Shown here one piece after another: positions 19,410-61,900 of a stretch of DNA of 64,000 nucleotides; position 1 is the stretch's first letter, and every line of letters begins with the position of its first letter. The stretch is from Pseudomonadota bacterium (GTDB lineage: Bacteria > Pseudomonadota > Gammaproteobacteria > Steroidobacterales > Steroidobacteraceae): contig CAUJHX010000182.1 in the NCBI GenBank assembly GCA_963204795.1, positions 56,903 through 120,902 of the forward strand, read 5' to 3'. The position numbers and the translations under genes were made by a program. Under the pieces are notes generated by a model, which saw only the letters and a program-made list of their open reading frames with translations, was not told where the DNA came from and did not search any database.

Positions 19410-19783
19410 CCAAGCAATTGAGCTTCGACTTGCCGGACGACCCGGATGCGCGACTCGATCCGTACGCGACGCCTGCACTGAAGAACCACAAGCCAGAGAA
19501 GTACGAGGCGTACCCGAAGGGCAAGCTGCCAATCGCGGGCGATGTCGTGACGCTCATTCACCGGTTGGGGAACACGAAGCAGGTGAAGTTCACGCAGGTC
19601 GTCGGACCGCGTGCGTACGTCTGCTGGCCCATCGCGAACGAGACCCTCGCGGTCTCGCTGAAGACCGGTCGCGTCATCGTCCCCAAGGCCCTTGCCGAGT
19701 GGCGCCTGGAACCGAACGCGCTGGAAATGGCCCGGGTCGTTCACAAAATGCTCCTGCTGGAACAAAAGATCGCCATCGAGTAG
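19406..19783 (+). CDS. hypothetical protein (125 aa)
   Basis: ATGA overlap with the upstream gene. No motif recognised. Confidence 0.6.
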   Translation: MTKQLSFDLPDDPDARLDPYATPALKNHKPEKYEAYPKGKLPIAGDVVTLIHRLGNTKQVKFTQVVGPRAYVCWPIANETLAVSLKTGRVIVPKALAEWRLEPNALEMARVVHKMLLLEQKIAIE

Positions 19784-19786
19784 GCT
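19758..19786 (+). promoter_or_regulatory. promoter candidate, leaderless design
   Basis: TGGAAC (19758-19763), N17, TAGGCT (19781-19786), N9, ATG 19796. No SD. Confidence 0.35.
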
Positions 19787-19795
19787 CACTCACGC

Positions 19796-20923
19796 ATGGC
19801 CAGGTACAACCCGAACCCGAGCGCGCCGCAGACTGCGTACATCCAGCACAGCAATCCGGCGGACATGCAGGCGGCGGCGGCGGCGTACATGGCGGCCCTG
19901 GCGGGGCGACTGATCTCAGCGATCACGCTCACTGGTGGCGGAGCGGGGTCGCTGTTCATTCTGGCCATCGAGCACACGCCCGCGGCAGACGGCGTCGGGA
20001 TCGACCCCGTCGAGGCGGCTGCCAGCTTCCGCGTGTACAGCGCAGGAACCGCGGTCGCTGCGACCTCGGCCTACAACGCGGCGCTGGCCGACGCGATGGC
20101 AGCGAACCCGGGTGTCCCGTTGCGCGACGCCGAGATCGAGGGGTCGTCCAGTGCTGCCGTGTTCTTCGGCTTCCTGGTGCTCGCAACGCAGCAGGGCGGA
20201 GGATGCTGCACCGCTCTGTCCGTTCGGCACGAGATGATCGTTTCGTCGGTGCCGGGGCGCAACAACTACACCATCCCCGTCGGCAACTGGTTCTGGAACG
20301 CAGTCGGCGAGACGACGCTCGACATCAACACGGGCACCGGGTGGATCGCTCAGGCATATGGAGCCGACTACGCGCACCTGCAGCGCGTTACGCCCCCGCC
20401 GACCGTGGCAGACGCCGCCATCGGGTTCACTCTCGTCGGCGGCGCAGTCCCGACGGGGTGGCTGCTCCGCTTCCGCTGGTTCGAGCGCACGCTGCTCGTC
20501 AAACCGAGCGCCGTTGCGAAGGTACGTGTACCGACGACCTACACTGCCCCGTGGAACTCCAGTAGCGGGGTCGACTTCCCAAACGGCGTGCGCGTGCCCG
20601 AGTTCCCGAACGTGCAGGTCGAGTTCTGGCGACAGACTTGGCGGAACGGCGGACAGCGCGGGAACATGGGCGTGCTGCGGCGCGACGGGAAGCGATACCT
20701 GCCGTACTTCCGCGGCGCCCTGAACCAGTTCACGTTTGCACTGTCGGAGTTTCGCTCGAAGCAGCCGCTGAAGCGCAATCACTTTCGGGTTTGCTACTAC
20801 GACCCGGCGACCGGGGCGCGCTCGGCGCTATGCCCCGACGTCATCGTGGTGTGCAACGATCAGCAGGACGACCGCGTGAACGGGCGTTTCGCCCGCACGC
20901 GTGGCAGCGTTTGGATCGAGTGA
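19796..20923 (+). CDS. hypothetical protein (375 aa), N-terminal domain distantly like the MGN family
   Basis: Long ORF with good GC3. The N-terminal segment ADMQAAAAAYMAALAGRLISAITLTGGGAGSLFILAIEH resembles the QSSLASDxQ...GAGDGHSF block of the 47309-48509 paralogs. Confidence 0.6.
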   Translation: MARYNPNPSAPQTAYIQHSNPADMQAAAAAYMAALAGRLISAITLTGGGAGSLFILAIEHTPAADGVGIDPVEAAASFRVYSAGTAVAATSAYNAALADAMAANPGVPLRDAEIEGSSSAAVFFGFLVLATQQGGGCCTALSVRHEMIVSSVPGRNNYTIPVGNWFWNAVGETTLDINTGTGWIAQAYGADYAHLQRVTPPPTVADAAIGFTLVGGAVPTGWLLRFRWFERTLLVKPSAVAKVRVPTTYTAPWNSSSGVDFPNGVRVPEFPNVQVEFWRQTWRNGGQRGNMGVLRRDGKRYLPYFRGALNQFTFALSEFRSKQPLKRNHFRVCYYDPATGARSALCPDVIVVCNDQQDDRVNGRFARTRGSVWIE

Positions 20924-20940
20924 TGGCGGTGACGCGTTCT

Positions 20941-21010
20941 GGAGAGGCCCGTAAGGGCCCCCCCCAGGGGCCCGTAAGGGTCTCCCCCAGAGACCTGTAA
21001 GGGCCTCCCC
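20941..21010. repeat. three tandem 23-bp units, each an imperfect hairpin closed by a GTAA loop
   Basis: Units at 20941-20964, 20965-20987 and 20988-21010. GTAA at 20951, 20974 and 20997 (exact 23-nt phasing). Consensus CAGrGrCCyGTAAGGGyCyCCCC. Confidence 0.85.
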
Positions 21011-21032
21011 AGAGCGCGTCACATGCAAGCCT

Positions 21033-21061
21033 TTGCCGGGTGCCCGTTCGCGGAGTAGGGT
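21033..21061 (+). promoter_or_regulatory. promoter candidate, leaderless design
   Basis: TTGCCG (21033-21038), N17, TAGGGT (21056-21061), N6, ATG 21068. Confidence 0.4.
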
Positions 21062-21067
21062 GACCCC

Positions 21068-21520
21068 ATGCGCATCTCGACAATCGACACTTCCCTGGGT
21101 CTGACAGGCAGAAACGTCGAGACGGCGAACCCAGGCGAGATCGAGGCGCGGCTTGAAATGGCCCGCCTGGAAATGCTCACCGAGATCCCTGACGCGACGC
21201 TCGGCACCTTCGCCGTGGCATCTGCCGGCGACGGAGCGCACTACATCCTGAGCTTGGTGGCTGGCACGGCGGCGGGCACGCCCGGGGGCCTCCCCCTTGC
21301 CGATCTACGCTTCGTGGTTGGGTACGGCTCCAACATGCAAGCAATCGAGAGTTCGATCTTGCCGTCGTTCATGGCGGCGGTGGCCGCTGGCTACACGTTG
21401 TACGCGGGCGCCGAATCCGCCGGCGCTACCTCTGGGCTGCGATTTCTCGGAGTCACGATTCTCCAGAGGACAGGCGTACCTCCGGCGCCCCCGGAGGAGC
21501 CGGTGGTTGTGATCCGCTAG
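21068..21520 (+). CDS. hypothetical protein (150 aa), distant MGN-family relative
   Basis: EIEARLEMARLEMLTEIPDATLGTFAVASAGDGAHYILSLV parallels the helix plus GAGDGHSF block of the 47309-48509 paralogs. Confidence 0.55.
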   Translation: MRISTIDTSLGLTGRNVETANPGEIEARLEMARLEMLTEIPDATLGTFAVASAGDGAHYILSLVAGTAAGTPGGLPLADLRFVVGYGSNMQAIESSILPSFMAAVAAGYTLYAGAESAGATSGLRFLGVTILQRTGVPPAPPEEPVVVIR

Positions 21521-21547
21521 ACGAAGCGCGCGCCCTGGGGTTAGACT
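21518..21547 (+). promoter_or_regulatory. promoter candidate, leaderless design
   Basis: TAGACG (21518-21523), N18, TAGACT (21542-21547), N7, ATG 21555. Confidence 0.4.
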
Positions 21548-21554
21548 CCGGTCC

Positions 21555-21878
21555 ATGTCGAACCGAACCCTTGCGCTGCTGCTCGCGCTTGCTGCCGTTC
21601 CTGGCGCTGCCATGGCCTCCTGTTCATCGGTGAAGCCCGCCGCGCGGACGGTCAACGACGTCGCCCGCGACCTGTGCTCGATGTTCTTCTCGGAGAAGGA
21701 AGGGATCTCCTTCGAGGACGCCGCGCGAGGCGCCTGCAGCACGCGCGAGGTGCTCGACCCGTTCATCCGCGAAGTGCTCAAGGCCAAGCAGGCGGCGGCT
21801 GGCCAGGGCGACGGCTCGGCCCCGTGCAAGACCGAGACGGTCGTGACCGTGACGCAGGACGCGGGTCCAGCCAAGTGA
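21555..21878 (+). CDS. small lipoprotein (107 aa)
   Basis: Signal peptide MSNRTLALLLALAAVPGAAMASC with a lipobox-like AMAS-C. Confidence 0.65.
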   Translation: MSNRTLALLLALAAVPGAAMASCSSVKPAARTVNDVARDLCSMFFSEKEGISFEDAARGACSTREVLDPFIREVLKAKQAAAGQGDGSAPCKTETVVTVTQDAGPAK

Positions 21879-22336
21879 TCCAGCTCGTGACGGCCCGAAG
21901 CGGCATCGGCTGTCGGATCGATGCCCACCGACTGATCGAGCGGCTGTGGATCGGGTCAGCTCCGAGCCGCGACAAGGATCTCGGCGCATGCGGGTTCGAT
22001 GCGGTGGTTCTTTGCGCCGAGGAGTATCAGCCGCGAGGCGCCTTCGGATCGGCGACCGCGGTGCACGCCGGCTTCGACGACGGCGAAATGGATACGCGGA
22101 CTGCGCAGGTCGCGTCGGGAGCTGCCGAAGAGGTCGTTCGCCGGTGGCGGAGGGGTGAGCGCGTGCTAGTGACTTGCATGGCCGGCCGCAACCGCTCGGG
22201 TCTCGTGAGCGCGCTCGCGCTTCGCCGGATCGGCGGGGTAACCGGGCGTCAGGCGCTGCGACATGTGCAGATGATGCGGCCGACCGCCTTGACGAACCCC
22301 AACTTCGCCAACTTCCTCGCAACGCTCGGTGCGTGA
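21875..22336 (+). CDS. dual-specificity (Cys-based) protein phosphatase
   Basis: 153 aa from GTG 21875 (GTGA overlap). CX5R(S/T) active-site loop VLVTCMAGRNRSGLV. Upstream RLWIGSAP and DAVVLCAEE are typical DSP context. Confidence 0.7.
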   Translation: MIQLVTARSGIGCRIDAHRLIERLWIGSAPSRDKDLGACGFDAVVLCAEEYQPRGAFGSATAVHAGFDDGEMDTRTAQVASGAAEEVVRRWRRGERVLVTCMAGRNRSGLVSALALRRIGGVTGRQALRHVQMMRPTALTNPNFANFLATLGA

Positions 22337-23064
22337 TGTTCGGATACCTGCCTGACCCAGAAGACAAGCGCGATCTGCCGTTCGACTTTTTGTCCACGCA
22401 GCAGGTTCCGCCCGAAGTCGACCTTCAGGGCCGTTGTGTCGCGATCCCGAATCAGGGCGGCACCTCCAGCTGCGTCGGACAGGCGACCCGCCAGGGCTTC
22501 GGCGTCGAAGAGGCGCGCTACGGGATCATCGACCCCGCGTCGGCCATGGGCATCTACTTCAACGCCCGCGCCGAGCATGGCGTCGAGAAGTTCGACTCTG
22601 GCACGCATGTGCGAACCGCCATCAAGTCCGCGGTGAAGTTCGGCCCGCTCCGCGAGCGAGACTGGCCGTTCGACGCCTCGCTGATCAACAAGCGTCCACC
22701 ATGGCGCGCATACCGCAACGCCCACGACGGCAAGGGCCCGCAGGGCTACTACCGCATCGTCGAAATCGGAGACGCTCGACTCGACGCGATCCGTCGCGCG
22801 TTGGCGGCCGAGCACCCGGTCGTCTTCGGCACGAACGTCGCGGAGAGCTTCACGCAGGACGACGGGCCGTTCCGGATCGACCGCCCGGACTCGTCGGAGC
22901 GTATTGCGGGCGGCCACGCCATGTGTCTCGTCGGCTACAAGGACGACATGTTCCGTGTCGCCAACTCCTGGGGCACCGGCTGGCGCGACCAAGGCTTCGC
23001 TTGGATGACCGAGAGCTACCTGACCTGGGTCAGCACGCGCGATCTTTGGGTCATCGTGGTGTGA
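22336..23064 (+). CDS. papain-like cysteine peptidase (C1 family)
   Basis: 242 aa from ATG 22336 (TGATG overlap). QGGTSSCVGQA (Gln/Cys), GGHAMCLVGY (His) and NSWGTGWRDQGF (Asn-Ser-Trp). Confidence 0.85.
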   Translation: MFGYLPDPEDKRDLPFDFLSTQQVPPEVDLQGRCVAIPNQGGTSSCVGQATRQGFGVEEARYGIIDPASAMGIYFNARAEHGVEKFDSGTHVRTAIKSAVKFGPLRERDWPFDASLINKRPPWRAYRNAHDGKGPQGYYRIVEIGDARLDAIRRALAAEHPVVFGTNVAESFTQDDGPFRIDRPDSSERIAGGHAMCLVGYKDDMFRVANSWGTGWRDQGFAWMTESYLTWVSTRDLWVIVV

Positions 23065-23068
23065 CGCT

Positions 23069-23326
23069 ATGGGCACTTGGCGGCGGCGCTCAAGCGCGGG
23101 CCTCAAGCTGCGGCTGAGCAAGCCGCCGAAGGAACGCGAAACGCTCTCGCCCTGCCCGGCGTGCGGCGGGTCCGGCGTGTGCTTGCTGCAGCCTGCGACC
23201 GGGTCATATCGCCAGGTGCAGTGCCGCTGGTGCGAGGGCCGCGGGTACGTGGATTCCGCGATGCTGTCGGCACACGCCAGGTGGCTTCGCATCCTGCGGT
23301 GGAACCGAGCGGTGGGCGCGTGCTAG
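23069..23326 (+). CDS. DnaJ-type zinc-finger mini-protein (2 x CXXCXGXG)
   Basis: 85 aa. Contains CPACGGSG and CRWCEGRG. Confidence 0.6.
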   Translation: MGTWRRRSSAGLKLRLSKPPKERETLSPCPACGGSGVCLLQPATGSYRQVQCRWCEGRGYVDSAMLSAHARWLRILRWNRAVGAC

Positions 23327-23329
23327 CCT
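23300..23329 (+). promoter_or_regulatory. promoter candidate, leaderless design
   Basis: TGGAAC (23300-23305), N18, TAGCCT (23324-23329), N7, GTG 23337. Confidence 0.35.
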
Positions 23330-23336
23330 GAGCACC

Positions 23337-23546
23337 GTGGAGCCGGGATACGAAGCGCGGTCGGGCGATGAGTTCGACGCCACGACGCGGTGGCGTCACG
23401 TCTGCGCGCGGATGCAGCGGCCACGGGTGCGCGCGAGGATCAAGCGCCAGATGCGCCGTCGAGGACGCCGGTGGTGGAAGCGCGGTCGTGCGCTCGACGA
23501 GCAACGCACGACGCTTGACCTGCTGATCGAAGACTTGGGGTACTGA
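23337..23546 (+). CDS. small highly basic protein (69 aa)
   Basis: GTG start 7 nt after a TAGCCT -10 box. Contains RVRARIKRQMRRRGRRWWKRGR. Confidence 0.4.
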   Translation: MEPGYEARSGDEFDATTRWRHVCARMQRPRVRARIKRQMRRRGRRWWKRGRALDEQRTTLDLLIEDLGY

Positions 23547-23857
23547 TGGAGACGACCATGAAGACGTGGCGAGGGCTGTCGGTGTACATGTTGGCAGTGC
23601 TGGCGCTCGGGAGCCGGTGCGATGTTCCGGTGGAGCCGGTGCGCCCCAAGCCCGTGGACGCCGGCACGCCGGCGGACTGTGCTGCCGCATGTGCGCATAT
23701 GCGCAAGCTCGGATGCGAAGAGGGCAAGCCGACGCCCAAGGGCGCGACGTGCGAGGACGTATGCAACAACGTGGAGGCCTCGGGCACCATCACGTTGCAC
23801 CCGGCCTGCGTGGTCAAGATCGAGCGTTGCGACCAAGTCGAGTCCTGCGCATACTGA
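23546..23857 (+). CDS. secreted Cys-rich small protein (103 aa)
   Basis: TGATG overlap. Signal-like WRGLSVYMLAVLALGSRC. The mature part has 8 or more Cys. Confidence 0.6.
   Translation: METTMKTWRGLSVYMLAVLALGSRCDVPVEPVRPKPVDAGTPADCAAACAHMRKLGCEEGKPTPKGATCEDVCNNVEASGTITLHPACVVKIERCDQVESCAY
23827..23855 (+). promoter_or_regulatory. promoter candidate, leaderless design
   Basis: TTGCGA (23827-23832), N17, CATACT (23850-23855), N7, ATG 23863. Confidence 0.35.
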
Positions 23858-23862
23858 CCACG

Positions 23863-24045
23863 ATGCGTCATCGCGCCCCCAGGTGCCCTCACGGTCTATA
23901 CTCGGGGCTCTGCCCGCTCAGGGACTGCCCACACTGGGACGGGGTCACGGACCAGCACGCGGCTGCTCGCACGATCAAGCACGACGCATGGGGGAAGAGC
24001 CAGCGGCGCCGTGGGTCGAAGAAAACTGAGCCGCGAGCTAGCTAG
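23863..24045 (+). CDS. small Cys/His protein (60 aa)
   Basis: C-terminal part of track ORF 23566-24045. Starts MRHRAPRCPHGLYSGLCPLRDCPHW. Its TAG stop lies inside the GCTAGCTAGC motif. Confidence 0.35.
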   Translation: MRHRAPRCPHGLYSGLCPLRDCPHWDGVTDQHAAARTIKHDAWGKSQRRRGSKKTEPRAS

Positions 24046-24055
24046 CTGTGCTAGC
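24037..24055. repeat. GCTAGC cluster incl. GCTAGC-N3-GCTAGC (site 2 of 4)
   Basis: GCTAGC at 24037, 24041 and 24050. ATG 24067 lies 11 nt downstream with no SD. Confidence 0.9.
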
Positions 24056-24066
24056 TTCGCGGGGCG

Positions 24067-24282
24067 ATGAAGTACGTTTTTAGCCAGCAGGAGGCTGGCG
24101 AGCTGGTGCTCGCGGAGCTTTACAGACGGGGAGTTCGCGGGACCGCGCGGTTGACGTGGAATGTCGGCCACAATCCTGTCACCGGCGAAGCAACCCTGGA
24201 GATCGCCGTTGAGATGGTTGAACCGCCGCCGCCGCCGCCGCCGCCGGCGGAAGGCGGCAACATGGACGGAGGAACGAGATGA
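24067..24282 (+). CDS. hypothetical protein (71 aa) with poly-Pro tract
   Basis: MKYVFSQQEAGELVLAELYRRG...EPPPPPPPPAEGG. Confidence 0.5.
   Translation: MKYVFSQQEAGELVLAELYRRGVRGTARLTWNVGHNPVTGEATLEIAVEMVEPPPPPPPPAEGGNMDGGTR
24223..24246 (+). repeat. (CCG)8 microsatellite encoding Pro8
   Basis: Eight perfect in-frame CCG codons in the 24067-24282 gene. Confidence 0.95.
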
Positions 24283-24473
24283 AGATCGAAGACGTTACCG
24301 GAACGCCGCGCCCGCACGAAGACGTGATGGCGGCGCTGAAGTGCATCGAGCAGGAAATGGTCTACAGCCCGACGGCGATGTCCGCCAAGAGCGGCCCGCT
24401 GTTGCTTCACTACACGGTGATCCGCGACTGCCTACGTGAGCTGCTGGTGCGCAGAGAGATGGAGCGAAAGTGA
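24279..24473 (+). CDS. small hypothetical protein (64 aa)
   Basis: ATGA overlap. Confidence 0.5.
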   Translation: MKIEDVTGTPRPHEDVMAALKCIEQEMVYSPTAMSAKSGPLLLHYTVIRDCLRELLVRREMERK

Positions 24474-24688
24474 AGCGAACCATCTACAAGTCGCGAGAGG
24501 AGCTATACCGAGCCGCGATGAGTATTGGCGGCGCTCTGCACGTAGTTGTGCTCCACGACGACGACTGCACCCCGGCGCGCTGCGTCTGCGAGCCGGAGTA
24601 TGTATTGGAGGAACTGACGACGGAGAATTACCTGAAGGGGCAGGCGGCGCAGGAAGAGTGGAAGAAGAAGAAGGGAGGCGCTGTATGA
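24470..24688 (+). CDS. small hypothetical protein (72 aa)
   Basis: GTGA overlap. Contains CTPARCVC. Confidence 0.5.
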   Translation: MKRTIYKSREELYRAAMSIGGALHVVVLHDDDCTPARCVCEPEYVLEELTTENYLKGQAAQEEWKKKKGGAV

Positions 24689-24930
24689 GACTGAACGAAC
24701 TGCGAGACACGAGCTACGAGATCGCCAAGAGCAAGGGCTGGCACGACGACGACATGAAGCGCTCGTTCGCCGACCTGATGGCGCTGGTGATCAGCGAGCT
24801 TGCCGAGGCGCTGGAAGAGCACCGGAAGGGATGCCCGCCAACGCGGGTGTACTTCGAGAAACCGGCGGTCGCTTTCGCGCGTGACGCGCTCGAAGCGCGC
24901 GCGGTCGAGCTGCTGTGGGGGCCGCGATGA
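24685..24930 (+). CDS. short MazG-like all-alpha NTP pyrophosphohydrolase-like protein
   Basis: 81 aa from ATG 24685 (ATGA overlap). LNELRDTSYEIAKSKGWH...LMALVISELAEALEEHRKG matches the N-terminal EExxE-type helix pattern of phage MazG-like proteins. It is shorter than I would expect. Confidence 0.45.
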   Translation: MRLNELRDTSYEIAKSKGWHDDDMKRSFADLMALVISELAEALEEHRKGCPPTRVYFEKPAVAFARDALEARAVELLWGPR

Positions 24931-25292
24931 GTGATCCCATCGAGAGCGCGGAGGACTTCGTGCGGCTGGTGTTCGCTGACGATGGTATCCCCGAGTACGA
25001 AGTCGAACATTCTAACCTCGGGCGCAATCTCGCCGATGGCATCCGGTCCCGCGACCGCGCGGTGAGGCGGGAGGCGCTCGCGGAGGCGGCGCGTTGGCTC
25101 GCTCAGAAGGTCGCCGACGTTCGCGAGGTAACGCGCGACTGCCGCCGCGAAGCCATCGCGCTCAAGGCTGCCGGGAAGGACTGGCAAGACGCTTTCCAGC
25201 GCGAGTGCCTTTCGGCGTCGCGATGCGGCGGGTTTGCCGACGCTGAGGCGCACTTCCGCGCCCTCGCCACCGGAGGCTCCGATGTCCGCTGA
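24927..25292 (+). CDS. hypothetical protein (121 aa)
   Basis: ATGA overlap. Starts MSDPIESAEDFVRLVF. Confidence 0.55.
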   Translation: MSDPIESAEDFVRLVFADDGIPEYEVEHSNLGRNLADGIRSRDRAVRREALAEAARWLAQKVADVREVTRDCRREAIALKAAGKDWQDAFQRECLSASRCGGFADAEAHFRALATGGSDVR

Positions 25293-27182: not shown

Positions 27183-27219
27183 CGGCGGTTCCACGTGAAA
27201 CAACGACGTAGGTAACCCA

Positions 27220-27765: not shown

Positions 27766-27772
27766 TCAAGAC

Positions 27773-27801
27773 ATGACATATGAGCGCGCAGTGGTTACTG
27801 T
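27773..27801 (+). promoter_or_regulatory. promoter candidate, leaderless design, overlapping a hairpin
   Basis: ATGACA (27773-27778), N17, TACTGT (27796-27801), N9, ATG 27811. A GCGCGCA/TGCGCGC stem lies at 27784-27790 and 27801-27807. Confidence 0.45.
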
Positions 27802-27810
27802 GCGCGCCAC

Positions 27811-28602
27811 ATGTCCGACGATGAAGTGGAGCGCGACAGCGCGCCGGTGGGCGACGTTGTCGTCGAAGCCGAGGCCGAAGGCGACGAGGACTGGAGCCCG
27901 TTCGACGAGATCCAGGAGGACTTCAAGCCGGGGCCGGTGGTCAAGGTCACCGCGGCTGATGGCCTGCCGACATATGCGCCGCCGCTGCACGACGAGAGCG
28001 ACATCCCCGTGCTGTCGCCGGACACGCTGACTTGCATGGGCGACTTCTCGAAGTTCGTCTTGCGCGGGATCTTCGGCGACGTTGTTGCCGAGTTCGATCC
28101 GGCAGACGTCGAGCGCTCGCCGAGCGGCCGATGGCGAGCATCAAAGCGAGCGGTCATGGAAAAGATGAGCTTGGAGCTGCAGCGCGTGCGTCAGTACGGC
28201 GAAGCGCACGAGCTGCCCGTGCACCCCGACGACGAGCAGCTGCTCACTCAGCTTCTCGGAGGCGTCAACCCGGGCATGGCGGTCAATCATGCGTGGATCG
28301 AAGTGTTCCCGGTGCGCCCGCCGTGCAGGCACTACGCGCGACAGCTGACCCAATTCGAGCTGAACGCTCAGGCGAAGGTGATGCTGCGAGTGTGCGCGGC
28401 GCGGCGGACCACCGAGGGGGCATTCATGTCGCTCCGCGACCGAGCCATGTGGGCGTGCGAGCTTCGGGAGCCCCACGCGGAATCCAGCGCTCTGCTGGAC
28501 GACTTCGATACAGCGAAAATGCAGGAGGGTGCGCGCCGCGAGCACGTGCCCATCTTTTCTCAGGAACCAGGAATCTTTGGAGGCGAACATGGCGGAAAAT
28601 GA
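27811..28602 (+). CDS. hypothetical protein (263 aa), acidic N-terminus
   Basis: Starts MSDDEVERDSAPVGDVVVEAEAEGDEDW. No motif recognised. Confidence 0.6.
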   Translation: MSDDEVERDSAPVGDVVVEAEAEGDEDWSPFDEIQEDFKPGPVVKVTAADGLPTYAPPLHDESDIPVLSPDTLTCMGDFSKFVLRGIFGDVVAEFDPADVERSPSGRWRASKRAVMEKMSLELQRVRQYGEAHELPVHPDDEQLLTQLLGGVNPGMAVNHAWIEVFPVRPPCRHYARQLTQFELNAQAKVMLRVCAARRTTEGAFMSLRDRAMWACELREPHAESSALLDDFDTAKMQEGARREHVPIFSQEPGIFGGEHGGK

Positions 28603-29074: not shown

Positions 29075-29077
29075 TCC

Positions 29078-52600: not shown

Positions 52601-52601
52601 C

Positions 52602-53277: not shown

Positions 53278-53306
53278 TTGCAGCAAGCCGAGCAAGCGGC
53301 TAGCTT
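53278..53306 (+). promoter_or_regulatory. promoter candidate, leaderless design, -10 embedded in the GCTAGC pair
   Basis: TTGCAG (53278-53283), N17, TAGCTT (53301-53306), N10, ATG 53317. The 15-bp palindrome GGCTTGCAGCAAGCC (53275-53289) overlaps the -35. Confidence 0.5.
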
Positions 53307-53313
53307 GGCTAGC
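53299..53313. repeat. tandem palindrome GCTAGC-N3-GCTAGC (site 3 of 4)
   Basis: GCTAGC at 53299-53304 and 53308-53313. ATG 53317 lies 3 nt downstream with no SD. Confidence 0.9.
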
Positions 53314-53316
53314 GCA

Positions 53317-53910
53317 ATGTCCGACGATACCAAGTACGATTTCGGTGTCCCCACCGTCATCGTGAAGGGCGGAACCACCTCGGCCTCCTACGACAAGGAG
53401 CAGGCTCGCCGTCGCGCCGACGCGGAGCAGAGACGGGGCATCCAGGACGCGCAGAGGGCCATGGGGCAGCAGGGCACAAGCCGGGATGGCGGGTTTTCAC
53501 TCGCCCGCCTCGGCAGCGCGCGCATGATCACGGAGAACTCGCCTCGGCTGGTCCTCTACTACATGAACAAGGACCACTCCGTTCGCCAGGAGTGCAAGAG
53601 CGAGATCACGTTCTACGAGCACCCGACGAAGGCGGGCGAGATGGACATGATGTTCGCCATGGTCTGCCCGCGCTGCCTGGAGCGCGGCATCGCCCAGGGC
53701 GAGAGCCAGATGCTGATCAAGGCCTCGCATCGGTCGTTCTGGATCGACGAGAGACTCAAAGGGACCGTCGTGGCGCTTCGCGATCCGTGGGGCAACCTCG
53801 ACCCGGTCATCATCTGCGGCACGGTGACTGCACAGGACACGATCAAGTGCAGCAACTACAACTGCACGTACGCGGTCCGCATCAACGACAGCAAGGTCTA
53901 CGAGGTATGA
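53317..53910 (+). CDS. hypothetical protein (197 aa)
   Basis: I prefer ATG 53317 (MSDDTKYDF) over the track TTG 53278. Contains CPRC...C...CSNYNC. Confidence 0.6.
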   Translation: MSDDTKYDFGVPTVIVKGGTTSASYDKEQARRRADAEQRRGIQDAQRAMGQQGTSRDGGFSLARLGSARMITENSPRLVLYYMNKDHSVRQECKSEITFYEHPTKAGEMDMMFAMVCPRCLERGIAQGESQMLIKASHRSFWIDERLKGTVVALRDPWGNLDPVIICGTVTAQDTIKCSNYNCTYAVRINDSKVYEV

Positions 53911-55987: not shown

Positions 55988-57030
55988 TCCGCCTCTACGG
56001 TCACCACAAGGGCGAGAGTTCATTCGTCCAGGTCACCCGTGGCCTGCGAGCGGCGGCCAAGTCGGCCGAGCTGCTCGCAGGCGAGGTCGCCGTGGACATG
56101 CTGGAGCAGGAACGCGTGCAGCCGGGAGCAGACGCTCTCGTTGGGCTCTTCTGTGGCGCCCCGCTCAGCATCGCTCTGGGGCCGCGTATGGGGCTGCACA
56201 AGGAACACTGGTTGCTGCTCGCCCCGAACAGCGAAGGGATCCCACCGTTCCTGAGAGAGCCGCTGTCCGCGGCGACAGGGTTCCTGGCCCCCAGCTCGTG
56301 GGCCGCCGACGTCTTGCGGCGTGAGTTTCCGTCACACCGGGTGCTGGTCGCTCCGCACGGCGTGCACCCGGATGTGCATATGCCCTCGGAAGAGGACCGC
56401 GAAGCGCGAACCAAGGAATACTCGGCCGGCACGTTTCGCGTTGCGCACTTCACGAGCACGCTGGGCCAGCGCAAAGGGACACTGCAGCTCCTGAGCGCAT
56501 GGAGGAACTGGTCCGAGAAGCCAGCGGGAGCACAGTTGCTCATCGTGGCCAACCCGCTCGCGGTCAACGAGTACCTGTGGCGAGCGAAGGAAATGGGGGT
56601 AGATCCAAAGACGGTGGGCGTCGTCGCGAATCCGGAGGCGCCAGTCTCCGCGCTGGCGGCAGCGCTGCGTCACGCTCACGTCGTCTGCCAGCCATCGCGC
56701 GCAGAGGGCTTTGGGATCGTGCCGCTCGAAGCTCGGGCTTGCGGCGTTCCGGTCGTGATGACGAAGTGCACCGGACACCGTGAATTTTGGAGCCCGCAAG
56801 GCACCGTCACGGTCGCACACGGCGACCTGGAGCCGCTCGACGACTACCCGGGGGCCGTGGCGCCGTCTGTGTCATCTGAAGCCATCCGGCTGGCGCTTTC
56901 CGAAGCCTTTGAGACCTGGCTCGCGCTGTCCGATGAAGCGGCGCGCGACGCCGACTCTGTGCGCTGGGAATGGTCGTGGCAGAAGCAGAATGCACCGGTG
57001 CTCCAAGAGCTGGTTGACGGGGCGCGCTAG
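55984..57030 (+). CDS. GT4-family glycosyltransferase
   Basis: 348 aa from GTG 55984 (GTGA overlap). Contains SRAEGFGIVPLEARACGVPVVMT (the classic GT4 EX7E region) and FTSTLGQRKG. Confidence 0.75.
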   Translation: MIRLYGHHKGESSFVQVTRGLRAAAKSAELLAGEVAVDMLEQERVQPGADALVGLFCGAPLSIALGPRMGLHKEHWLLLAPNSEGIPPFLREPLSAATGFLAPSSWAADVLRREFPSHRVLVAPHGVHPDVHMPSEEDREARTKEYSAGTFRVAHFTSTLGQRKGTLQLLSAWRNWSEKPAGAQLLIVANPLAVNEYLWRAKEMGVDPKTVGVVANPEAPVSALAAALRHAHVVCQPSRAEGFGIVPLEARACGVPVVMTKCTGHREFWSPQGTVTVAHGDLEPLDDYPGAVAPSVSSEAIRLALSEAFETWLALSDEAARDADSVRWEWSWQKQNAPVLQELVDGAR

Positions 57031-57042
57031 CCGAGCTAGCAG
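57014..57042 (+). promoter_or_regulatory. promoter candidate, leaderless design, -10 embedded in the GCTAGC pair
   Basis: TTGACG (57014-57019), N17, TAGCAG (57037-57042), N7, ATG 57050. Confidence 0.5.
57026..57040. repeat. tandem palindrome GCTAGC-N3-GCTAGC (site 4 of 4)
   Basis: GCTAGC at 57026-57031 and 57035-57040. The first copy contains the TAG stop of the GT gene. Confidence 0.9.
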
Positions 57043-57049
57043 AGCAGCG

Positions 57050-57385
57050 ATGTCCGACAAAGAGGATCTGGTCAGCAAGAACTACTGGTATTGGTTCGAC
57101 GGCAAGCCTGTCTTGGTGCAGCTACACGAGCCGTGGGTGGGCGTGACCTACCCGAACGATCCGGTGCTGCAGAAGGACGAGAGCGGCAAGCCCGTCGGAG
57201 TTGTGACGGTCCCTTTTCTCAAGGGGATCTGCCACGTGCACCCCGACGGTGACGACGTGATGTTCGTGCTGGAGACGACAGACCCCAACCCGAACGCCCG
57301 CGCCATGGCGTTCATTGCGATTCGTCGCGAGCTGGTCGCCTTCATCACGCATATCGAAAGGCGCCTCGTAGAGCCGTCAGCGTGA
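57050..57385 (+). CDS. hypothetical protein (111 aa)
   Basis: Starts MSDKEDLVSKNYWYWFDGKPV. No SD; leaderless-type context. Confidence 0.55.
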   Translation: MSDKEDLVSKNYWYWFDGKPVLVQLHEPWVGVTYPNDPVLQKDESGKPVGVVTVPFLKGICHVHPDGDDVMFVLETTDPNPNARAMAFIAIRRELVAFITHIERRLVEPSA

Positions 57386-57990
57386 AGAAGTTCCGCCTCT
57401 GGTTGATCGCCCGGGTGGCAGAGACGAAGTACGCGCGCGATCCGGTGGCCGACGATGCTGCGCTGGAAGCCCTAGCGCAGAAGATGGGTTTGCAGCCGGA
57501 CTTGCTGGCAGAGGCCAGAGTGCGCGCTCGCACGCTGGGTCGCGCGCCGACCGGGCAGAACCAGGGGGACCGAAGGCTGGTGGCGGTGTCCTGTGCCGAG
57601 GCTCCGTACCGGGCCTGGGAGAAACATGTGGACACGTGGGGAGGCATCAGCCAGTCGGACCTATTGCGCTCCCTGATCTATGCCTACCTCTGCGGCACGT
57701 ACGAGCCTCCGTGTGAGCGACTGACGCGGCTCTGGGTCTGGGACGGGAGGCACGTGACGGTCACCAGGATCAAGGGGCGCCCGGCGTACTCGATTCACAG
57801 CTTCATCAAGCGCGGCGCGTACGTGGCCTTGGTGGAACGCGCGCGGCGCCTGAACCACACGGTGACAGCGCTCCTGCGCGCGCTTATCCTGGAGAACATG
57901 GATGGCCGGTTCGGTCAGCGCGGCGCCTTGACGATTCTGGATCTGCGCAGCATGCCGGGAGACCCGGAGTTCTACCTGAAGGGGCAGTGA
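57382..57990 (+). CDS. possible tandem ribbon-helix-helix DNA-binding protein (202 aa)
   Basis: GTGA overlap. Two segments show a strand-helix-helix pattern: RRLVAVSCAEAPYRAWEKHVDTWGGISQSDLLRSLIYAYL and KRGAYVALVERARRLNHTVTALLRALILE. Confidence 0.35.
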   Translation: MKKFRLWLIARVAETKYARDPVADDAALEALAQKMGLQPDLLAEARVRARTLGRAPTGQNQGDRRLVAVSCAEAPYRAWEKHVDTWGGISQSDLLRSLIYAYLCGTYEPPCERLTRLWVWDGRHVTVTRIKGRPAYSIHSFIKRGAYVALVERARRLNHTVTALLRALILENMDGRFGQRGALTILDLRSMPGDPEFYLKGQ

Positions 57991-58412
57991 TGGTTGGATA
58001 CGCGCACAGCCTGACGAGCTACACGACGAACGAGCTGTGGTACTCGGCGACGGCGACGGCCACCGCGACCACCACGGCGTTCGACTACTACCAGGGCGGC
58101 TTCAGTATGCCGGCGACGGCCACCTGGGACAACGGCGTGAACCCGGCGGCGGAGCTGGCCGCCCTGGCCCTTCGGAAGCTCGGGCGTCACCTGGTCGCCG
58201 ACGATCTGCGCGACCGCTGGCGCGAGTGGACCAAGTCCGCCAAGTGGCTAGAGGCCTACCTGCTGCGGCTTGACGTGCGCGACGAGGCCCTTCGCAGCCT
58301 GGCGAGGCATATGCGCCAAAGAGAGCCCAGGCGCCGGCCGCCACGAGCGCGAGCGCGCACCTGCAGCTTCAGCTCGGCGCGGGCGGCTCGCCCGCCAGAG
58401 GCCGTCTCGTGA
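57987..58412 (+). CDS. hypothetical protein (141 aa)
   Basis: Overlap-coupled to the upstream gene. Thr/Ala-rich N-terminus and Arg-rich C-terminus. Confidence 0.45.
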   Translation: MMVGYAHSLTSYTTNELWYSATATATATTTAFDYYQGGFSMPATATWDNGVNPAAELAALALRKLGRHLVADDLRDRWREWTKSAKWLEAYLLRLDVRDEALRSLARHMRQREPRRRPPRARARTCSFSSARAARPPEAVS

Positions 58413-58690
58413 CCGAAGAGAGGCGCTTCCCGGTCCTCCGGGGCACGCAGCGCGAGCGCGACGAGCTGGAGCGACTGGGCTGCCCCAGGAGCGTCCCGTG
58501 GGCCTTTGTGGCGCCTCACGAGGCCCAGGCGCTCGTGAACCACGACCAGACCCTGGAGCGCCTCGCGCAGCGCGGCGGGCTCAGCCCGAGCGAGCTGGTG
58601 GCCGTGGTGCGTGGTGAAGGGCTCCGGGTCGTCCTGGCCCGCCGGGACGAGGACGCGGTGCCGATACTGTTGGAGCTTCTGGCCCCATGA
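58409..58690 (+). CDS. hypothetical protein (93 aa)
   Basis: GTGA overlap. Confidence 0.5.
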   Translation: MTEERRFPVLRGTQRERDELERLGCPRSVPWAFVAPHEAQALVNHDQTLERLAQRGGLSPSELVAVVRGEGLRVVLARRDEDAVPILLELLAP

Positions 58691-58911
58691 AGCTCACGCC
58701 GGAGCAGTGCCGCCTGCTGGTGCTGGCAGTCGCGTCGTCCGCCGCCGCCTCCTTCAAAGGCGCTCTGGACCACGACGTTTTCGAGCCGCCCCCAAGGCCA
58801 CCGGCGCCAGATGTTCCCGAGGTGCTCGCCTGGTATCGCCGCCGCGAAGCCGAGGAGAAGGGTGCTGGGCGCGAGCGCCGAAGGGCTCGGAAGCGTGGCC
58901 AGCGCAGATGA
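58687..58911 (+). CDS. small hypothetical protein (74 aa), basic C-terminus
   Basis: ATGA overlap. Confidence 0.45.
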   Translation: MKLTPEQCRLLVLAVASSAAASFKGALDHDVFEPPPRPPAPDVPEVLAWYRRREAEEKGAGRERRRARKRGQRR

Positions 58912-58925
58912 GTCGATGTTAGTGT
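58896..58925 (+). promoter_or_regulatory. promoter candidate, leaderless design, for the recombinase gene
   Basis: TGGCCA (58896-58901), N18, TAGTGT (58920-58925), N7, GTG 58933. A TGTAACG half-site at 58923-58929 overlaps it. Confidence 0.3.
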
Positions 58926-58932
58926 AACGGGC

Positions 58933-61900
58933 GTGGAGCTGACCAAGAACCGCGCCGAGCTGGCCGTGCTGCGTGGCAAGCGCGCCCCAGAGCATATGGC
59001 CCTGTGGGTCCAGGCCTTCGCCGACGGCGACGAGGCACTGGCCCAGCGCTATGCCATCGCCGTCGCGACGTTCCTCGGTGACAGCACGGCCTCGGGCGAG
59101 GAGTGGGCGAGCTACGTCGGCAAGCTCTCGCCCCGCACGCGCGAGGCATATGCGTTCGCGGTCACGGAGTTCTTCGAGTGGGCAGCGCGCCAGCACGGTC
59201 AGATCGTTCCACCACACAAGGTGCTGCGCAAGGACGCCGAGGACTACGCGAACTGGCTCTCCAACCGACCGTTCTCGCTCACCGAAGAGAAGCTGAACGA
59301 CTTCGATCAGGAGCGACGCCGCACGATCTATGAGACCGTGGTGAAGATCGGGCCGGCGGACCGCCGCAGCATCTACGGAGCGCTGCCGGCGGCGATGAAG
59401 CCCGGCTACACGTTGGAGCTGCTGACGAGCACGCTGGGGCGCATGGTGCTGCACGACCTGCTCGACCGAAGCCCGACGCTCTCACAGGTACGCGTCGAGC
59501 ATCCGCGAGCAGGAATCGACCAGAACACCATCATGGTCCCCGGTCCCGATCCAGAGGGACCGTGGGTGCCCATGGAGCTGGCAGACGTCTTCCAGTATGC
59601 GATCCCGCGCCCGCGCGGCGTGTCTCGCTCCACCATCGCGCTCAGGCTCTCTGCGCTGAGCACCTTCTGGGACGTGCTCGCCCAGGGCGAGAACGTGCCC
59701 GGTGGCCACGCGATCATCCAGCACAACATCTTCAAGGGCATGAAGAAGCGCGTGACGCGCGGACTGAGCCGCGAACGCAAAGCGTCGGCGGCGTCGCGGC
59801 GCATGGACCCATCGCTCGTGCCGCGACTGCTCAACGCTGCGAACCTGGCCAAGACGCTCCCCGAGAAGCGCGACAAGGCGCTGTTGTACTTCCTGGTATT
59901 CACGGGATCTCGGCTTTCCGAGGCGGTCAACCTCCGAAGGGGGGAGCCTCCGGCGTCCGAGATCAACCGCTGGCCGGGGTGGTTCGTCGGCAACACGGAG
60001 CCGCCCGTCGTGCGCGTTCGGCGCAAAGGAGGCAAGCTCCAGTCGCTCCCGTTTCCCCCTGTCGCGCTGCGCGCGCTGGCAGACTTCCAGGCCGATCTGG
60101 ACAGGCGCTCCGCGCCGCTCAGCGCGCAGAGCAGCGACCCAAAGGCGCCGCACTACCTGCATCCCAACAGCCCGCGGTGGCGCTACCGCGAGCTGGCTCG
60201 CGCCTCCGACGCGCCGCTGTTTCCGCCGGTGCACTTCTGGGGCGCCAACAGCACGTACAACTACCAGGAGTTCAAGCCCAACGCCCCGAACACATATGGG
60301 CCTCCGACGTACCGCCGCTCCATGAGCAAGGCTGGCGTGTATCAGCTACTCGTGCGTCTCGCGCGCAGGGCCGGCCTGGTCGAGTCCGAGATCGAGCAGG
60401 TGCATCCACACGCGCTCCGACACTTCGCGGCAACCGCCATGGCGAAGGGCGGGAAAGACCTGCGCGAGATCCAGGCCATCCTCGGGCACGAGTCCGTCAC
60501 GACGACCGAGGGCTACCTGGCCGACATCGAGAACGTGGTGGCGCTCTCGGGCCAGGCCGAGATCCTGGAGTATCTGTCGCAGTTCGAGGGGGCGGCCGAG
60601 GCAGTGCCCCCGCCGCCCCCGCACGCGCCCAAGGCGCCTCCGAAGCGGGAGGTCATCGAGACCTACGGCATCCCGGCCCCGGAAGCCCCCAGGAGGCCGC
60701 CCAGAGAGCAGGAGCCGCAGGTTCCGGGGCAACCGCCACTGCGCCCGCCGAAGCCGCCGAAGCCGCCGAAGCCCGCCAAGGCCCCGCCGCCGGCCGTCGT
60801 CGCGGCAGCCCAGGCTGCGTCTCGCGTGCCGCCGGCGGAGACCGCAGCCGTCCAGGCGCTCGCTCCAGCATATGTGGCGCCAGAGGAGCTTCCGCCGCAC
60901 ACCCTGGCGGTCGTGCCGCACGTCACCTGGCCGGAGGCGGCGTCCATCCCGACGGCCGCCGGGCGCGTCACGGTCTACCAGGAGCCACCGGAGCCACGCG
61001 CGGCGCCCGAGCGCAAGATCGTGGCGGTCGAAGGCGATCCCATCCCGGAAGAGGTGAAGGCCGACATCGCGCTCAACCAGATCCGCGACAAGCAGAGCCC
61101 CGGCTCACCGGACGATGTCTACGAAGCGATGGAGCGCGGTGATCAGTGGGAGAGCATCGAGTTCACGCTGTTGCGACCCCGGAAGCGCCCGCGGGACGAC
61201 GACCTTGTGACCCTGAGCGGGAGCAAGGAGCGCAAGGACGAGCAGGTCCAGACGCGCTCACCCCGCCACGAGTTCCTGGCGACGTTCTACGATCCGTGGC
61301 CGCCGAACTACGGCATCGGGACCGTGAGCTTGCTTCCGTGGTTCACCAGAGGAAGGCCAGACGCGAAAGGGCGCGTCAAGGCTCCGAATGACGAGGGCGA
61401 ATGGGTTGAGATCCCACCGCTGCCGGTGCTTTCTCCGGAGCAGGTATTAGCTGAGACTACCGGTACGCATGTGCTCGACGGGCTAGAGGCGCTGTACGCA
61501 CTCTGGCTCACCGGAGATCCTGCGCAAGGAATTGCTCCGTCGCCGTCGAGAACCTTCGGCCTTGTGCGCTGGTACGGATTCTTTGCGCACACGACGGGAG
61601 CGTTGCAGGCGTATCTCCGCGACAAAAAGAAGGAGTACGACCGCATCGGCAGTTCTTCCATGGGAACACCCGTGGCCAATGTTCCGACATGGGTCGCATG
61701 GGACGTACTTGCAACCGTCGGCAAGAACGTGCGCGCCCACAAGGACGAATGGGTGCTGGCCTGGTTCCGAGAGAACGCCCACACCTACACCACTACGCTC
61801 AAGGCATATGAGCGCATGAAGGGCAAGGAAGCTAAGCCCGGAGAACAGGTCTTCACGCGCGCTTTTGAGGTGGCAACAGTCGAGGCTGAGTCTATGGCTC

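What the first reader, a model, noticed from the sequence alone, without database searches (positions are those of the whole stretch)
19758..58935. A class of promoters whose TA(G)nnT -10 box sits 6-10 nt before the start codon (leaderless mRNAs)
At least ten starts share the layout -35, N17/18, -10, N6-10, start, with no SD:
- 11380(-): TTGACT / TAGCAG
- 19796: TGGAAC / TAGGCT
- 21068: TTGCCG / TAGGGT
- 21555: TAGACG / TAGACT
- 23337: TGGAAC / TAGCCT
- 23863: TTGCGA / CATACT
- 27811: ATGACA / TACTGT
- 53317: TTGCAG / TAGCTT
- 57050: TTGACG / TAGCAG
- 58933: TGGCCA / TAGTGT

Several of these genes begin ATGTCCGAC (MSD). Genes inside operons instead use strong AGGAGG-type RBSs.

The element therefore mixes leaderless first genes with SD-led, coupled downstream genes. 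Frequent leaderless initiation is known in some high-GC lineages, so this may also hint at the host.
Basis: partly seen in the sequence, partly recalled or inferred. Interest (0 to 1): 0.6.

Follow-up and report, generated by a model that had tools for sequence, protein, structure and literature searches.

The report
Leaderless-type promoters in a soil virus
About a tenth of the genes of this complete 122.6-kb high-GC virus-like element, and of its uncultured relatives, have an ordinary bacterial promoter placed directly against the start codon, so their mRNAs should have almost no leader; this is a known way of expressing genes, now shown to be conserved in an undescribed virus family.

Summary
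All ten sites exist exactly as written. The layout is far more frequent than chance. In the whole contig, 9 of 129 ORF starts have TANNNT 6-7 nt upstream, against about 0.8 per control offset pair (15-fold, P=1e-8). The -35 matches, TGn extensions and a C at -1 are also enriched.

Comparative evidence is strong. The gene at 27811 has a TTGcyC-N17-TANNNT box 6-11 nt before ATGTCC in 36 of 42 distinct metagenomic orthologue sequences, and in seven further syntenic loci. Only the T, A and T of the hexamer are invariant. Orthologues also keep the layout at 21068, 21555, 53317, 57050 and 58933.

Weak points:
- 23863 is not conserved, and the 23337 ORF is doubtful.
- At 19796 the TAG is the upstream gene's stop codon.
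- 11380(-) and 57050 use TAGCAG, which has no T at position 6 and lies inside GCTAGC arrays.
- Sites with a 9-10 nt gap should give leaders of 2-4 nt, not zero.

The host hint is not borne out. The co-binned genome is a high-GC gammaproteobacterium with about 4% leaderless-type genes, and the link rests on binning only. This is a known mechanism with new members.

The parts
27773..27813 (+). Best-supported site: ATGACA-N17-TACTGT-N9-ATG, heading gene 27811-28602 and the SD-led gene block that follows it. The predicted TSS is at the A two nt before the ATG.
   Evidence: The N-terminus MSD(D/E)E is conserved in 56 homologues. Seven syntenic relatives keep TTGnnn/GTGACA-N17/18-TANNNT-N9-ATGTCCGA, with only T, A and T invariant in the hexamer. 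Among 42 distinct metagenome orthologue sequences, 36 have TANNNT at gap 6-11. The logo over those sequences plus the window and four syntenic loci is TTGCyC-N17-TGCT-TANNNT.
21033..21070 (+). TTGCCG-N17-TAGGGT-N6-ATG, gene 21068-21520
   Evidence: The orthologue in L087 starts at an ATG preceded by TAGTCT-N9 with no SD. A weak SD-like GGTGA overlaps the box.
21518..21557 (+). TAGACG-N18-TAGACT-N7-ATG, gene 21555-21878
   Evidence: The orthologue at L087:3800 has a perfect TTGACA-N17-TAGCTT-N6-ATG.
58896..58935 (+). TGGCCA-N18-(TGt)TAGTGT-N7-GTG, heading the 1554-aa tyrosine recombinase gene 58933-63597
   Evidence: The orthologue at L093:14470 has TAGCCA-N18-TATGGT-N6-GTG (76% identity).
53278..53319 (+). 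TTGCAG-N17-TAGCTT-N10-ATG, gene 53317-53910. The -10 box is the first unit of a GCTAGC-N3-GCTAGC array.
   Evidence: The N-terminus is conserved in 63 homologues. L093:10001 has TTGCAT-N17-TAGCTT-N8-ATG with the same array. L094:10001 has TACCTT-N6-ATG without it.
57014..57052 (+). TTGACG-N17-TAGCAG-N7-ATG, gene 57050-57385. It has a strong -35 and a non-canonical -10 (no T at position 6) inside a GCTAGC array.
   Evidence: The gene is real (codon score 24, GC3 0.83). L093:13448 has TTGACG-N17-TAGCGC-N6-ATG.
11378..11417 (-). TTGACT-N17-TAGCAG-N8-ATG, gene 10487-11380 on the minus strand. It has the same build as 57050. It is divergent from the SD-led gene at 11552, which has a conventional leadered promoter at 11454-11482.
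   Evidence: No orthologue was fetched.
19758..19798 (+). TGGAAC-N17-TAGGCT-N9-ATG, gene 19796-20923. The TAG is also the stop codon of gene 19406-19783, so the call is ambiguous.
   Evidence: Homologues in unrelated 63% GC phage contigs L001 and L003 have CTTGCG-N18-GATACT-N9-ATG. The gene is absent from L087.
23300..23339 (+). TGGAAC-N18-(TGc)TAGCCT-N7-GTG before a 69-codon ORF. The gene is doubtful.
   Evidence: The codon score is only 4.8 and there is no homologue in the relatives. A TGn extension is present.
23827..23865 (+). TTGCGA-N17-CATACT-N7-ATG before the small gene 23863-24045. This is a weak site.
   Evidence: The gene is conserved in L087 (64% over 55 aa). There the upstream region has a G-rich SD-like run and no -10 box.
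2057..2095 (-).
1004..1043 (-).

Best explanation
Most of the listed sites (at least six of ten, plus about ten more on the contig) are ordinary housekeeping-sigma (sigma-70 type) promoters. They have the relaxed high-GC form TTGnnn-N17/18-TAnnnT and lie directly against SD-less start codons.

Proposed mechanism:
1. Host RNA polymerase starts transcription about 7 nt after the hexamer.
2. With a 6-7 nt gap, that position is the A or G of the start codon.
3. With an 8-10 nt gap, it lies 1-4 nt upstream of the start codon.
4. The first cistron is therefore translated by leaderless-type initiation, with ribosomes binding a 5'-terminal AUG or GUG.
5. The following cistrons use SD sites or coupling.

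A sub-class (11380-, 53317, 57050) has GCTAGC arrays over the -10 and start region. These sites are probably regulated by an unknown GCTAGC-binding protein.

Shown here: the position-specific enrichment, the promoter-like sequence grammar, the absence of SD, the validity of the start codons, and conservation across the virus family.

Inferred only: the transcription start points, use of the host sigma factor, and the leaderless mode of translation.
For: Enrichment on the contig:
- 9 of 129 ORFs have TANNNT at gap 6-7, against 0.45% background (P=1e-8).
- 12 genes fall at gap 5-10, against 0-4 in shifted control windows.

Promoter grammar, for 17 curated sites against 336 other TANNNT hexamers on the contig:
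- The -35 match is better (P=3e-4).
- TGn extension occurs in 5/17 against 14/336 (P=0.001).

C at -1 occurs in 19/24 such sites, against 14/31 SD-led genes (P=0.01). This fits a pyrimidine(-1)/purine(+1) start.

Start codons are fixed by conserved N-termini.

Orthologous promoters:
- For 27811, 7 syntenic loci keep the layout. So do 36 of 42 distinct metagenome sequences. In the combined logo TTG is 85-92% conserved and the spacer is 17 nt in 31/39.
- The layout is also conserved for 21068 and 21555, and for 53317, 57050 and 58933.

Family-wide profiles:
- Using the database's own gene calls (210 genes), gap 6 = 2, gap 7 = 7 and gap 9 = 7, against about 0.5 elsewhere.
- In 29 further loci (364 ORFs), gaps 6-9 hold 40 hits, against about 6 expected.

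No sigma-70 region 2 domain is found on the contig.

The same grammar is documented for bacterial leaderless genes (PMC3160421).
Against:
- An E. coli-consensus scan (at least 4/6 matches to TATAAT) reports none of the sites. By enterobacterial standards these would be weak promoters.
- No terminators precede the sites, so read-through transcripts must also exist.
- TAGCAG and TAGCGC lack the normally essential T at hexamer position 6.
- Gaps of 9-10 nt place the modal start 2-4 nt before the AUG.
- GUG-initiated leaderless translation (58933, 23337) is not established outside Actinobacteria and Deinococcus.
- 23863 is not conserved, and the 23337 ORF may not be a gene.
- At 19796 the box coincides with a stop codon.
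Confidence: 0.72

Rival explanations
1. The boxes are chance or ascertainment artefacts. TAG and TAA trinucleotides are the in-frame stops that define the 5'-most start, and the reader picked starts that happened to have a TA-rich hexamer nearby.
For: At 19796 the TAG is the upstream gene's stop codon. Gaps of 6 and 9 nt are in frame with the start, so stop codons inflate those offsets. In the co-binned genome, gap 9 falls to background once TAG and TAA are excluded (9 against about 5.5). Sites 23337 and 23863 have weak support.
Against: Out-of-frame gap 7 is also enriched, with 3 hits on the contig against about 0.5 and 7 in relatives against about 0.5. Non-stop hexamers TA[CT]NNT are enriched at gap 6 in the co-binned genome (25 against about 5.5). 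In-frame offsets 0, 3 and 12-30 are not enriched. The -35, TGn and -1 C enrichments and the orthologous conservation cannot come from stop codons.
Confidence: 0.08
2. The hexamers are real promoters or regulatory sites, but translation of these SD-less genes does not depend on a 5'-terminal start codon. The genes would be translated mainly from longer read-through transcripts, by termination-reinitiation or 70S scanning from the preceding cistron. Alternatively, the true starts lie elsewhere.
For: Upstream stops are close at 19796 (12 nt), 57050 (19 nt), 23863 (5 nt), 21555 (34 nt) and 27811 (45 nt). No intrinsic terminators precede the sites. Gaps of 9-10 nt do not put the modal TSS on the AUG.
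Against: Several sites follow long gaps or strand switches where no coupling is possible. These include 21068 (144 nt), 58933, 11380(-), and the divergent pairs in the other half of the contig. Start codons are fixed by N-terminal conservation. It is hard to see why a promoter should stay 6-10 nt from the AUG in dozens of diverged relatives if its position were irrelevant.
Confidence: 0.13
3. The TAGC-containing boxes (11380-, 53317, 57050, and perhaps 24067) are not -10 elements. They would be operators or recognition sites (GCTAGC-N3-GCTAGC) for a virus-encoded protein or polymerase factor, and only mimic TAGnnT.
For: TAGCAG and TAGCGC lack T at position 6. The arrays recur at orthologous places in L093 and were noted independently (e1-3000299).
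Against: A good TTGAC(G/T) or TTGCA(G/T) hexamer lies exactly 17 nt upstream of the TAGC unit in the window and in L093. The orthologue in L094 has a plain TACCTT-N6-ATG without any GCTAGC. No sigma factor or T7-like polymerase was detected on the contig. An operator overlapping a promoter fits both observations.
Confidence: 0.07

Closest known systems
Bacterial leaderless genes with a TANNNT 'TA-like signal' about 12 nt upstream of the translation start (Zheng et al. 2011, PMC3160421; M. tuberculosis PMC3898074; Deinococcus PMC4007540, PMC12340547)
   Same: Shared features are the hexamer with only T, A and T informative in high-GC DNA, the position (first T at -12/-13 for the sites with a 6-7 nt gap), the absence of SD, and the use of both AUG and GUG starts.
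   Different: Here the layout is in a viral genome. A third of the sites sit 2-4 nt further upstream. The -35 (TTG) is better conserved than in the co-binned genome's own leaderless-type genes.
SigA-like promoters predicted to give leaderless mRNAs in Cluster O mycobacteriophages, including divergent pairs (PMC4351075). By my own knowledge, lambda PRM-cI is the classical phage leaderless mRNA.
   Same: [quoted passage not shown] Compact divergent pairs also occur on this contig, at window -25205(-)/-25166(+) and -16317(-)/-16257(+).
   Different: This is an unrelated virus family with an unknown host. The layout is used for about 10% of genes, including the head of the large structural-like module. 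In lambda it serves only a repressor gene.
High-GC gammaproteobacteria with appreciable leaderless fractions: Xanthomonas campestris pv. vesicatoria has 14% of mRNAs with a leader under 10 nt (PMC3300014). Zheng et al. predict 4.5% for gamma-proteobacteria where leaderless genes are detected (PMC3160421).
   Same: The co-binned gammaproteobacterial genome shows a TANNNT peak at gap 6-7 in about 3.6-4.6% of genes.
   Different: Whether that organism is the host is not established.

Membership tests
Housekeeping sigma-70/SigA-type promoter | -10 hexamer with A at position 2 and T at position 6 (TANNNT in high-GC organisms) | tested here: met
   Eight of the ten listed sites have A2 and T6, and seven are full TANNNT. 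TAGCAG at 11380(-) and 57050 fails T6. In 39 orthologous promoters of 27811, T, A and T are invariant while the middle three positions vary.
Housekeeping sigma-70/SigA-type promoter | -35 element TTGnnn located 16-19 nt upstream of the -10 | tested here: met
   The -35 score of 17 sites is higher than for 336 control hexamers (P=3e-4). In the orthologue logo T is 0.85, T 0.92 and G 0.85, with a 17-nt spacer in 31/39.
Housekeeping sigma-70/SigA-type promoter | Match to the E. coli consensus (at least 4/6 to TATAAT and 9/12 overall) | tested here: not met
   The consensus scan reports none of the sites. The hexamers match TATAAT in only 3 positions, as is usual for high-GC lineages (PMC3160421).
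Housekeeping sigma-70/SigA-type promoter | Transcription by host holoenzyme starting 6-9 nt downstream of the -10 | not testable with these tools
Leaderless mRNA gene | Primary 5' end at, or within a few nt of, the start codon | not testable with these tools
   This can only be inferred from spacing. Gaps of 6-7 nt (21068, 21555, 23337, 23863, 57050, 58933) put the modal +1 on the start codon. Gaps of 8-10 nt (11380-, 19796, 27811, 53317) put it 1-4 nt upstream. A conserved pyrimidine-A lies at -3/-2 in 7/8 orthologues of 27811.
Leaderless mRNA gene | No Shine-Dalgarno sequence upstream of the start codon | tested here: met
   Nine of the ten sites have no SD core of 4 nt or more within 3-12 nt of the start. 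Site 21068 has a GGTGA that overlaps the box. Elsewhere on the contig 52/129 genes have a core of 5 nt or more, against 6/129 at a control offset.
Leaderless mRNA gene | The annotated start codon is the true one | tested here: met
   N-termini are conserved in 56 homologues (27811) and 63 homologues (53317). Orthologue alignments reach residue 1-2 for 21068, 21555, 57050 and 58933. This is not shown for 23337 (no homologue) or 11380(-).
Virus-specific promoter read by a virus-encoded sigma factor or RNA polymerase | The element encodes its own sigma factor or single-subunit RNA polymerase | tested here: not met
   All 14 Sigma70_r2 matches lie on other contigs. There is no PF00940 match, but that search had no positive control. 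Divergent factors cannot be excluded.

The most novel reading that the evidence does not exclude
The promoter-on-the-start-codon layout may be a conserved regulatory device of a whole family of uncultured viruses of about 120 kb. The head of the structural-like module carries a family-specific TTGCyC-N17-TGCT-TAnnnT box fixed 6-10 nt before an ATGTCC start, with TCC chosen at codon 2 in all 7 syntenic orthologue loci. If the host really is a gammaproteobacterium, efficient expression of about 10% of viral genes from near-leaderless mRNAs, including GUG-initiated ones, would imply one of two things. Either this bacterial lineage has an unusually capable leaderless translation system, or the virus supplies a factor that favours leaderless initiation.
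Probability: 0.12. Interest if true: 0.6.

Novelty: new member of a known kind. Interest (0 to 1): 0.3.

Why it matters
The result gives a usable transcription map for an otherwise unannotatable element, in which nearly all genes are ORFans. It fixes start codons and marks likely transcription-unit heads, including the head of the 25-kb structural-like module and the giant recombinase gene. It shows that the GCTAGC arrays sit on promoters. It also shows that leaderless-type expression is a conserved trait of an uncultured virus family from soil and sediment. It warns against reading this trait as a marker of an actinobacterial host. The mechanism itself is textbook-known, so the general interest is modest.

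Tried and rejected
- Phage-collection searches by DNA and protein found nothing.
- Two single-protein scans of viral contigs found nothing.
- Actinobacterial host: tblastn with WhiB1 and Pup found nothing in the 92%-complete bin. RpoB is gammaproteobacterial.
- CRISPR-spacer or att-type matches between the contig and the bin: only chance matches of 21-22 nt.
- CATATG as a promoter element: a few promoters contain it, but 31 of 63 copies are inside coding sequence and only 4 lie within 45 nt upstream of a start. Rejected.
- A sigma-54 reading of the conserved TGCT before the -10 of the 27811 promoter: GG-N10-GC is not consistently present (inspection). Rejected.
- ECF-type reading of the two TGGAAC -35 boxes (19796, 23337): there are only two cases and no ECF-like -10. 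Not pursued.
- ATGTCCGAC as a special leaderless signal: it reflects conserved MSD N-termini. ATGTCC also occurs on SD-led genes of relatives. Not supported as a class feature.

Full report
**Source.** The window is C182:56903-120902 of a 287-contig, 3.17-Mb, 66% GC assembly. C182 is by far the longest contig. Its first 141 bp are repeated exactly at its end, so it is a complete circular or terminally redundant element of 122,589 bp. It has no match in the phage collection, and nearly all its genes are ORFans. The recognisable ones are an intein-bearing DnaB, glycosyltransferases, a papain-like peptidase and a 1554-aa tyrosine recombinase.

**Observation.** All ten sites exist exactly as written.
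- The -10-to-start gaps are 6 nt (21068), 7 nt (21555, 23337, 23863, 57050, 58933), 8 nt (11380-), 9 nt (19796, 27811) and 10 nt (53317).
- Seven hexamers are full TANNNT. CATACT (23863) lacks the first T, and TAGCAG (11380-, 57050) lacks the last T.
- No SD core precedes these starts, apart from a GGTGA overlapping the box at 21068.
- Three genes begin ATGTCCGAC, out of 4 copies of this 9-mer on the contig.

**Is it more than chance?** I called ORFs with a codon-usage model and profiled TANNNT against the 5'-most start.
- On C182 there are 6 hits at gap 6, 3 at gap 7 and 3 at gap 9, against about 0.3 per offset elsewhere.
- That is 9/129 at gap 6-7 against 0.45% of all ATG/GTG (P=1e-8).
- At gap 5-10 there are 12 genes, against 0-4 in shifted control windows.
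- In-frame stop codons (TAG/TAA) can inflate gaps 6 and 9. However, gap 7 is enriched too, other in-frame offsets are not, and non-stop hexamers are enriched at gap 6 in the co-binned genome.

A contig-wide scan found about ten further sites outside the window. These include two compact divergent pairs, plus 2059(-) and 1006(-) inside the window.

For 17 curated sites compared with the 336 other TANNNT hexamers of the contig:
- The -35 match is better (P=3e-4).
- TGn extensions are commoner, 5/17 against 14/336 (P=0.001).
- G at hexamer position 3 is strongly preferred (14/17).

The base before the start codon is C in 19/24 sites with gaps of 6-8 nt (contig plus relatives), against 14/31 SD-led genes (P=0.01). 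This is expected if the start codon's purine is +1. SD cores of 5 nt or more precede 52/129 genes, against 6/129 at a control offset. The statement that other genes are SD-led therefore holds.

**Comparative evidence.**
- The protein encoded at 27811 has 56 homologues at 33-98% identity, with a conserved MSD(D/E)E N-terminus.
- Seven syntenic relatives (L086-L092, 62-66% GC, some on contigs of 107-138 kb) all carry a -35 (TTGCCC, TTGCTC or GTGACA), N17/18, TANNNT, N9 and ATGTCCGA. The invariant upstream columns include exactly the T, A and T of the hexamer.
- A profile scan of metagenome contigs added 42 distinct orthologous upstream sequences. Of these, 36 have TANNNT 6-11 nt before the ATG. 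The gap counts are 9 nt: 14, 8 nt: 9, 6 nt: 7, 10 nt: 3, 7 nt: 2 and 11 nt: 1.
- The six without a box include the three loci of 54-58% GC, and several have an SD-like or purine-rich leader instead.
- The combined logo is TTGCyC-N17-TGCT-TANNNT.

Other sites:
- 21068: the orthologue in L087 has TAGTCT-N9-ATG.
- 21555: L087 has TTGACA-N17-TAGCTT-N6-ATG.
- 53317: L093 has TTGCAT-N17-TAGCTT-N8-ATG, and L094 has TACCTT-N6-ATG.
- 57050: L093 has TTGACG-N17-TAGCGC-N6-ATG.
- 58933: L093 has TAGCCA-N18-TATGGT-N6-GTG.
- 23863: the L087 orthologue has a G-rich SD-like run and no box, so this site is not conserved.
- 23337: the ORF has no homologue and a weak coding score.
- 19796: the gene is missing from L087. 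Homologues in unrelated 63% GC phage contigs have CTTGCG-N18-GATACT-N9-ATG. In the window the TAG doubles as the stop codon of gene 19406-19783.

Family-wide profiles:
- With the database's own gene calls (210 genes), gap 6 = 2, gap 7 = 7 and gap 9 = 7, against about 0.5 elsewhere.
- In 29 further high-GC loci (364 ORFs), gaps 6-9 hold 40 hits against about 6 expected.

**Mechanism.** The grammar is that of housekeeping sigma-70-type promoters in high-GC DNA.
- No Sigma70_r2 domain lies on C182, and no T7-like polymerase was found (no positive control). Host holoenzyme is therefore the likely reader.
- With gaps of 6-7 nt the modal start point is the first base of the start codon.
- With gaps of 8-10 nt it lies 1-4 nt upstream. 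For 27811 a conserved pyrimidine-A at -3/-2 (7/8 loci) suggests a 2-nt leader.
- Sites 11380(-), 53317 and 57050 combine a good -35 with a TAGC-derived -10 inside GCTAGC-N3-GCTAGC arrays. These arrays were noted earlier as e1-3000299. I read them as regulated promoters, not a separate promoter type. The -35 is exactly 17 nt away in both the window and L093, and L094 has a plain box without arrays.
- An E. coli-consensus scan finds none of the sites, and no terminators precede them. By enterobacterial standards they are weak, and read-through transcripts must coexist with those started at these promoters.

**Host.**
- The bin is 91.8% complete and lacks WhiB and Pup.
- Its RpoB is 82-86% identical to uncultured Gammaproteobacteria and 73-79% to Chromatiales, Ectothiorhodospira and Competibacter.
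- Its own genes show a TANNNT peak at gap 6-7, with 108 hits against about 23 expected, or roughly 3.6-4.6% of genes. This is in line with the 4.5% predicted for gamma-proteobacteria (PMC3160421) and the 14% measured in Xanthomonas (PMC3300014).
- C182 is a compositional outlier within the bin. Its tetranucleotide correlation with the rest is 0.80, against 0.97-0.99 for six of the seven next-largest contigs tested (a seventh, C243, scores 0.70). CTAG observed/expected is 0.60 on C182 against 0.16 in the bin. No spacer match exists. The host link is therefore unproven.

**Known or new.** TANNNT about 12 nt upstream of the start is the published signature of bacterial leaderless genes (PMC3160421, PMC3898074, PMC4007540, PMC12340547). 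Phage use of host-type promoters for leaderless mRNAs, including divergent pairs, has been predicted for Cluster O mycobacteriophages (PMC4351075). This is a new member of a known kind. What is new is its conservation across an undescribed virus family and the possible gammaproteobacterial context.

**Limits.** My gene calls are home-made. Orthologue start codons were chosen by a rule that favours MS(D/E) N-termini.

Noticed in passing
whole contig C182 (window = C182:56903-120902): The first 141 bp of the 122,730-bp contig are repeated exactly at its end. The element is therefore a complete circular or terminally redundant genome of 122,589 bp.
   Followed up: partly
rest of the assembly (for example RpoB at C18:3879-7283): The co-binned genome is an uncultured high-GC gammaproteobacterium. 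About 3.6-4.6% of its genes show a TANNNT peak 6-7 nt before the start codon. C182 is a compositional outlier in the bin (tetranucleotide r 0.80; CTAG observed/expected 0.60 against 0.16).
   Followed up: partly
window 27790-27801 and orthologues in L086-L152: The promoter of the 27811 family has a conserved TGCT immediately before the -10 hexamer (T 0.67, G 0.82, C 0.74, T 0.77). This is one nt out of register with a canonical TGn extended -10. Its meaning is unknown.
   Followed up: partly
window 27814-27816 and orthologues: Codon 2 of the 27811 family is TCC in all 7 syntenic orthologue loci checked, although TCC makes up only 16% of internal Ser codons in these loci. ATGTCC is also common on other genes of the family (17 of 49 Ser second codons).
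   Followed up: partly
C182:31697-31736 (window coordinates -25205 to -25166, outside the window): Two divergent SD-less starts lie only 39 nt apart and share the palindrome GCTACCACATATGGTAGC. It supplies a TGg-TAGCNT extended -10 on each strand, forming a very compact back-to-back promoter pair. A second divergent pair lies at window -16317/-16257.
   Followed up: no
window 11454-11482: The SD-led gene at 11552 has a conventional promoter-like TTGACG-N17-CATTGT 69 nt upstream of its ATG. The element therefore also has leadered transcription units with the same -35 type.
   Followed up: no
whole contig; 63 copies of CATATG: CATATG is about 17 times more frequent per kb on C182 than in the rest of the bin. 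The copies lie mostly inside coding sequence (31 coding, 17 intergenic), so it is not a promoter element.
   Followed up: partly
L087:3336-3738: The L087 orthologue of gene 21068 aligns in two reading frames (residues 1-56 and 56-134). One of the two genomes therefore carries a frameshift or a sequencing error in this gene.
   Followed up: no
L127, L130, L141, L143 (distant relatives; L127, L141 and L143 have 54-58% GC): In some distant relatives, three of them with lower GC, the orthologue of 27811 has no -10 box at the start and instead an SD-like or purine-rich leader. The initiation mode of this gene has therefore switched within the family.
   Followed up: no
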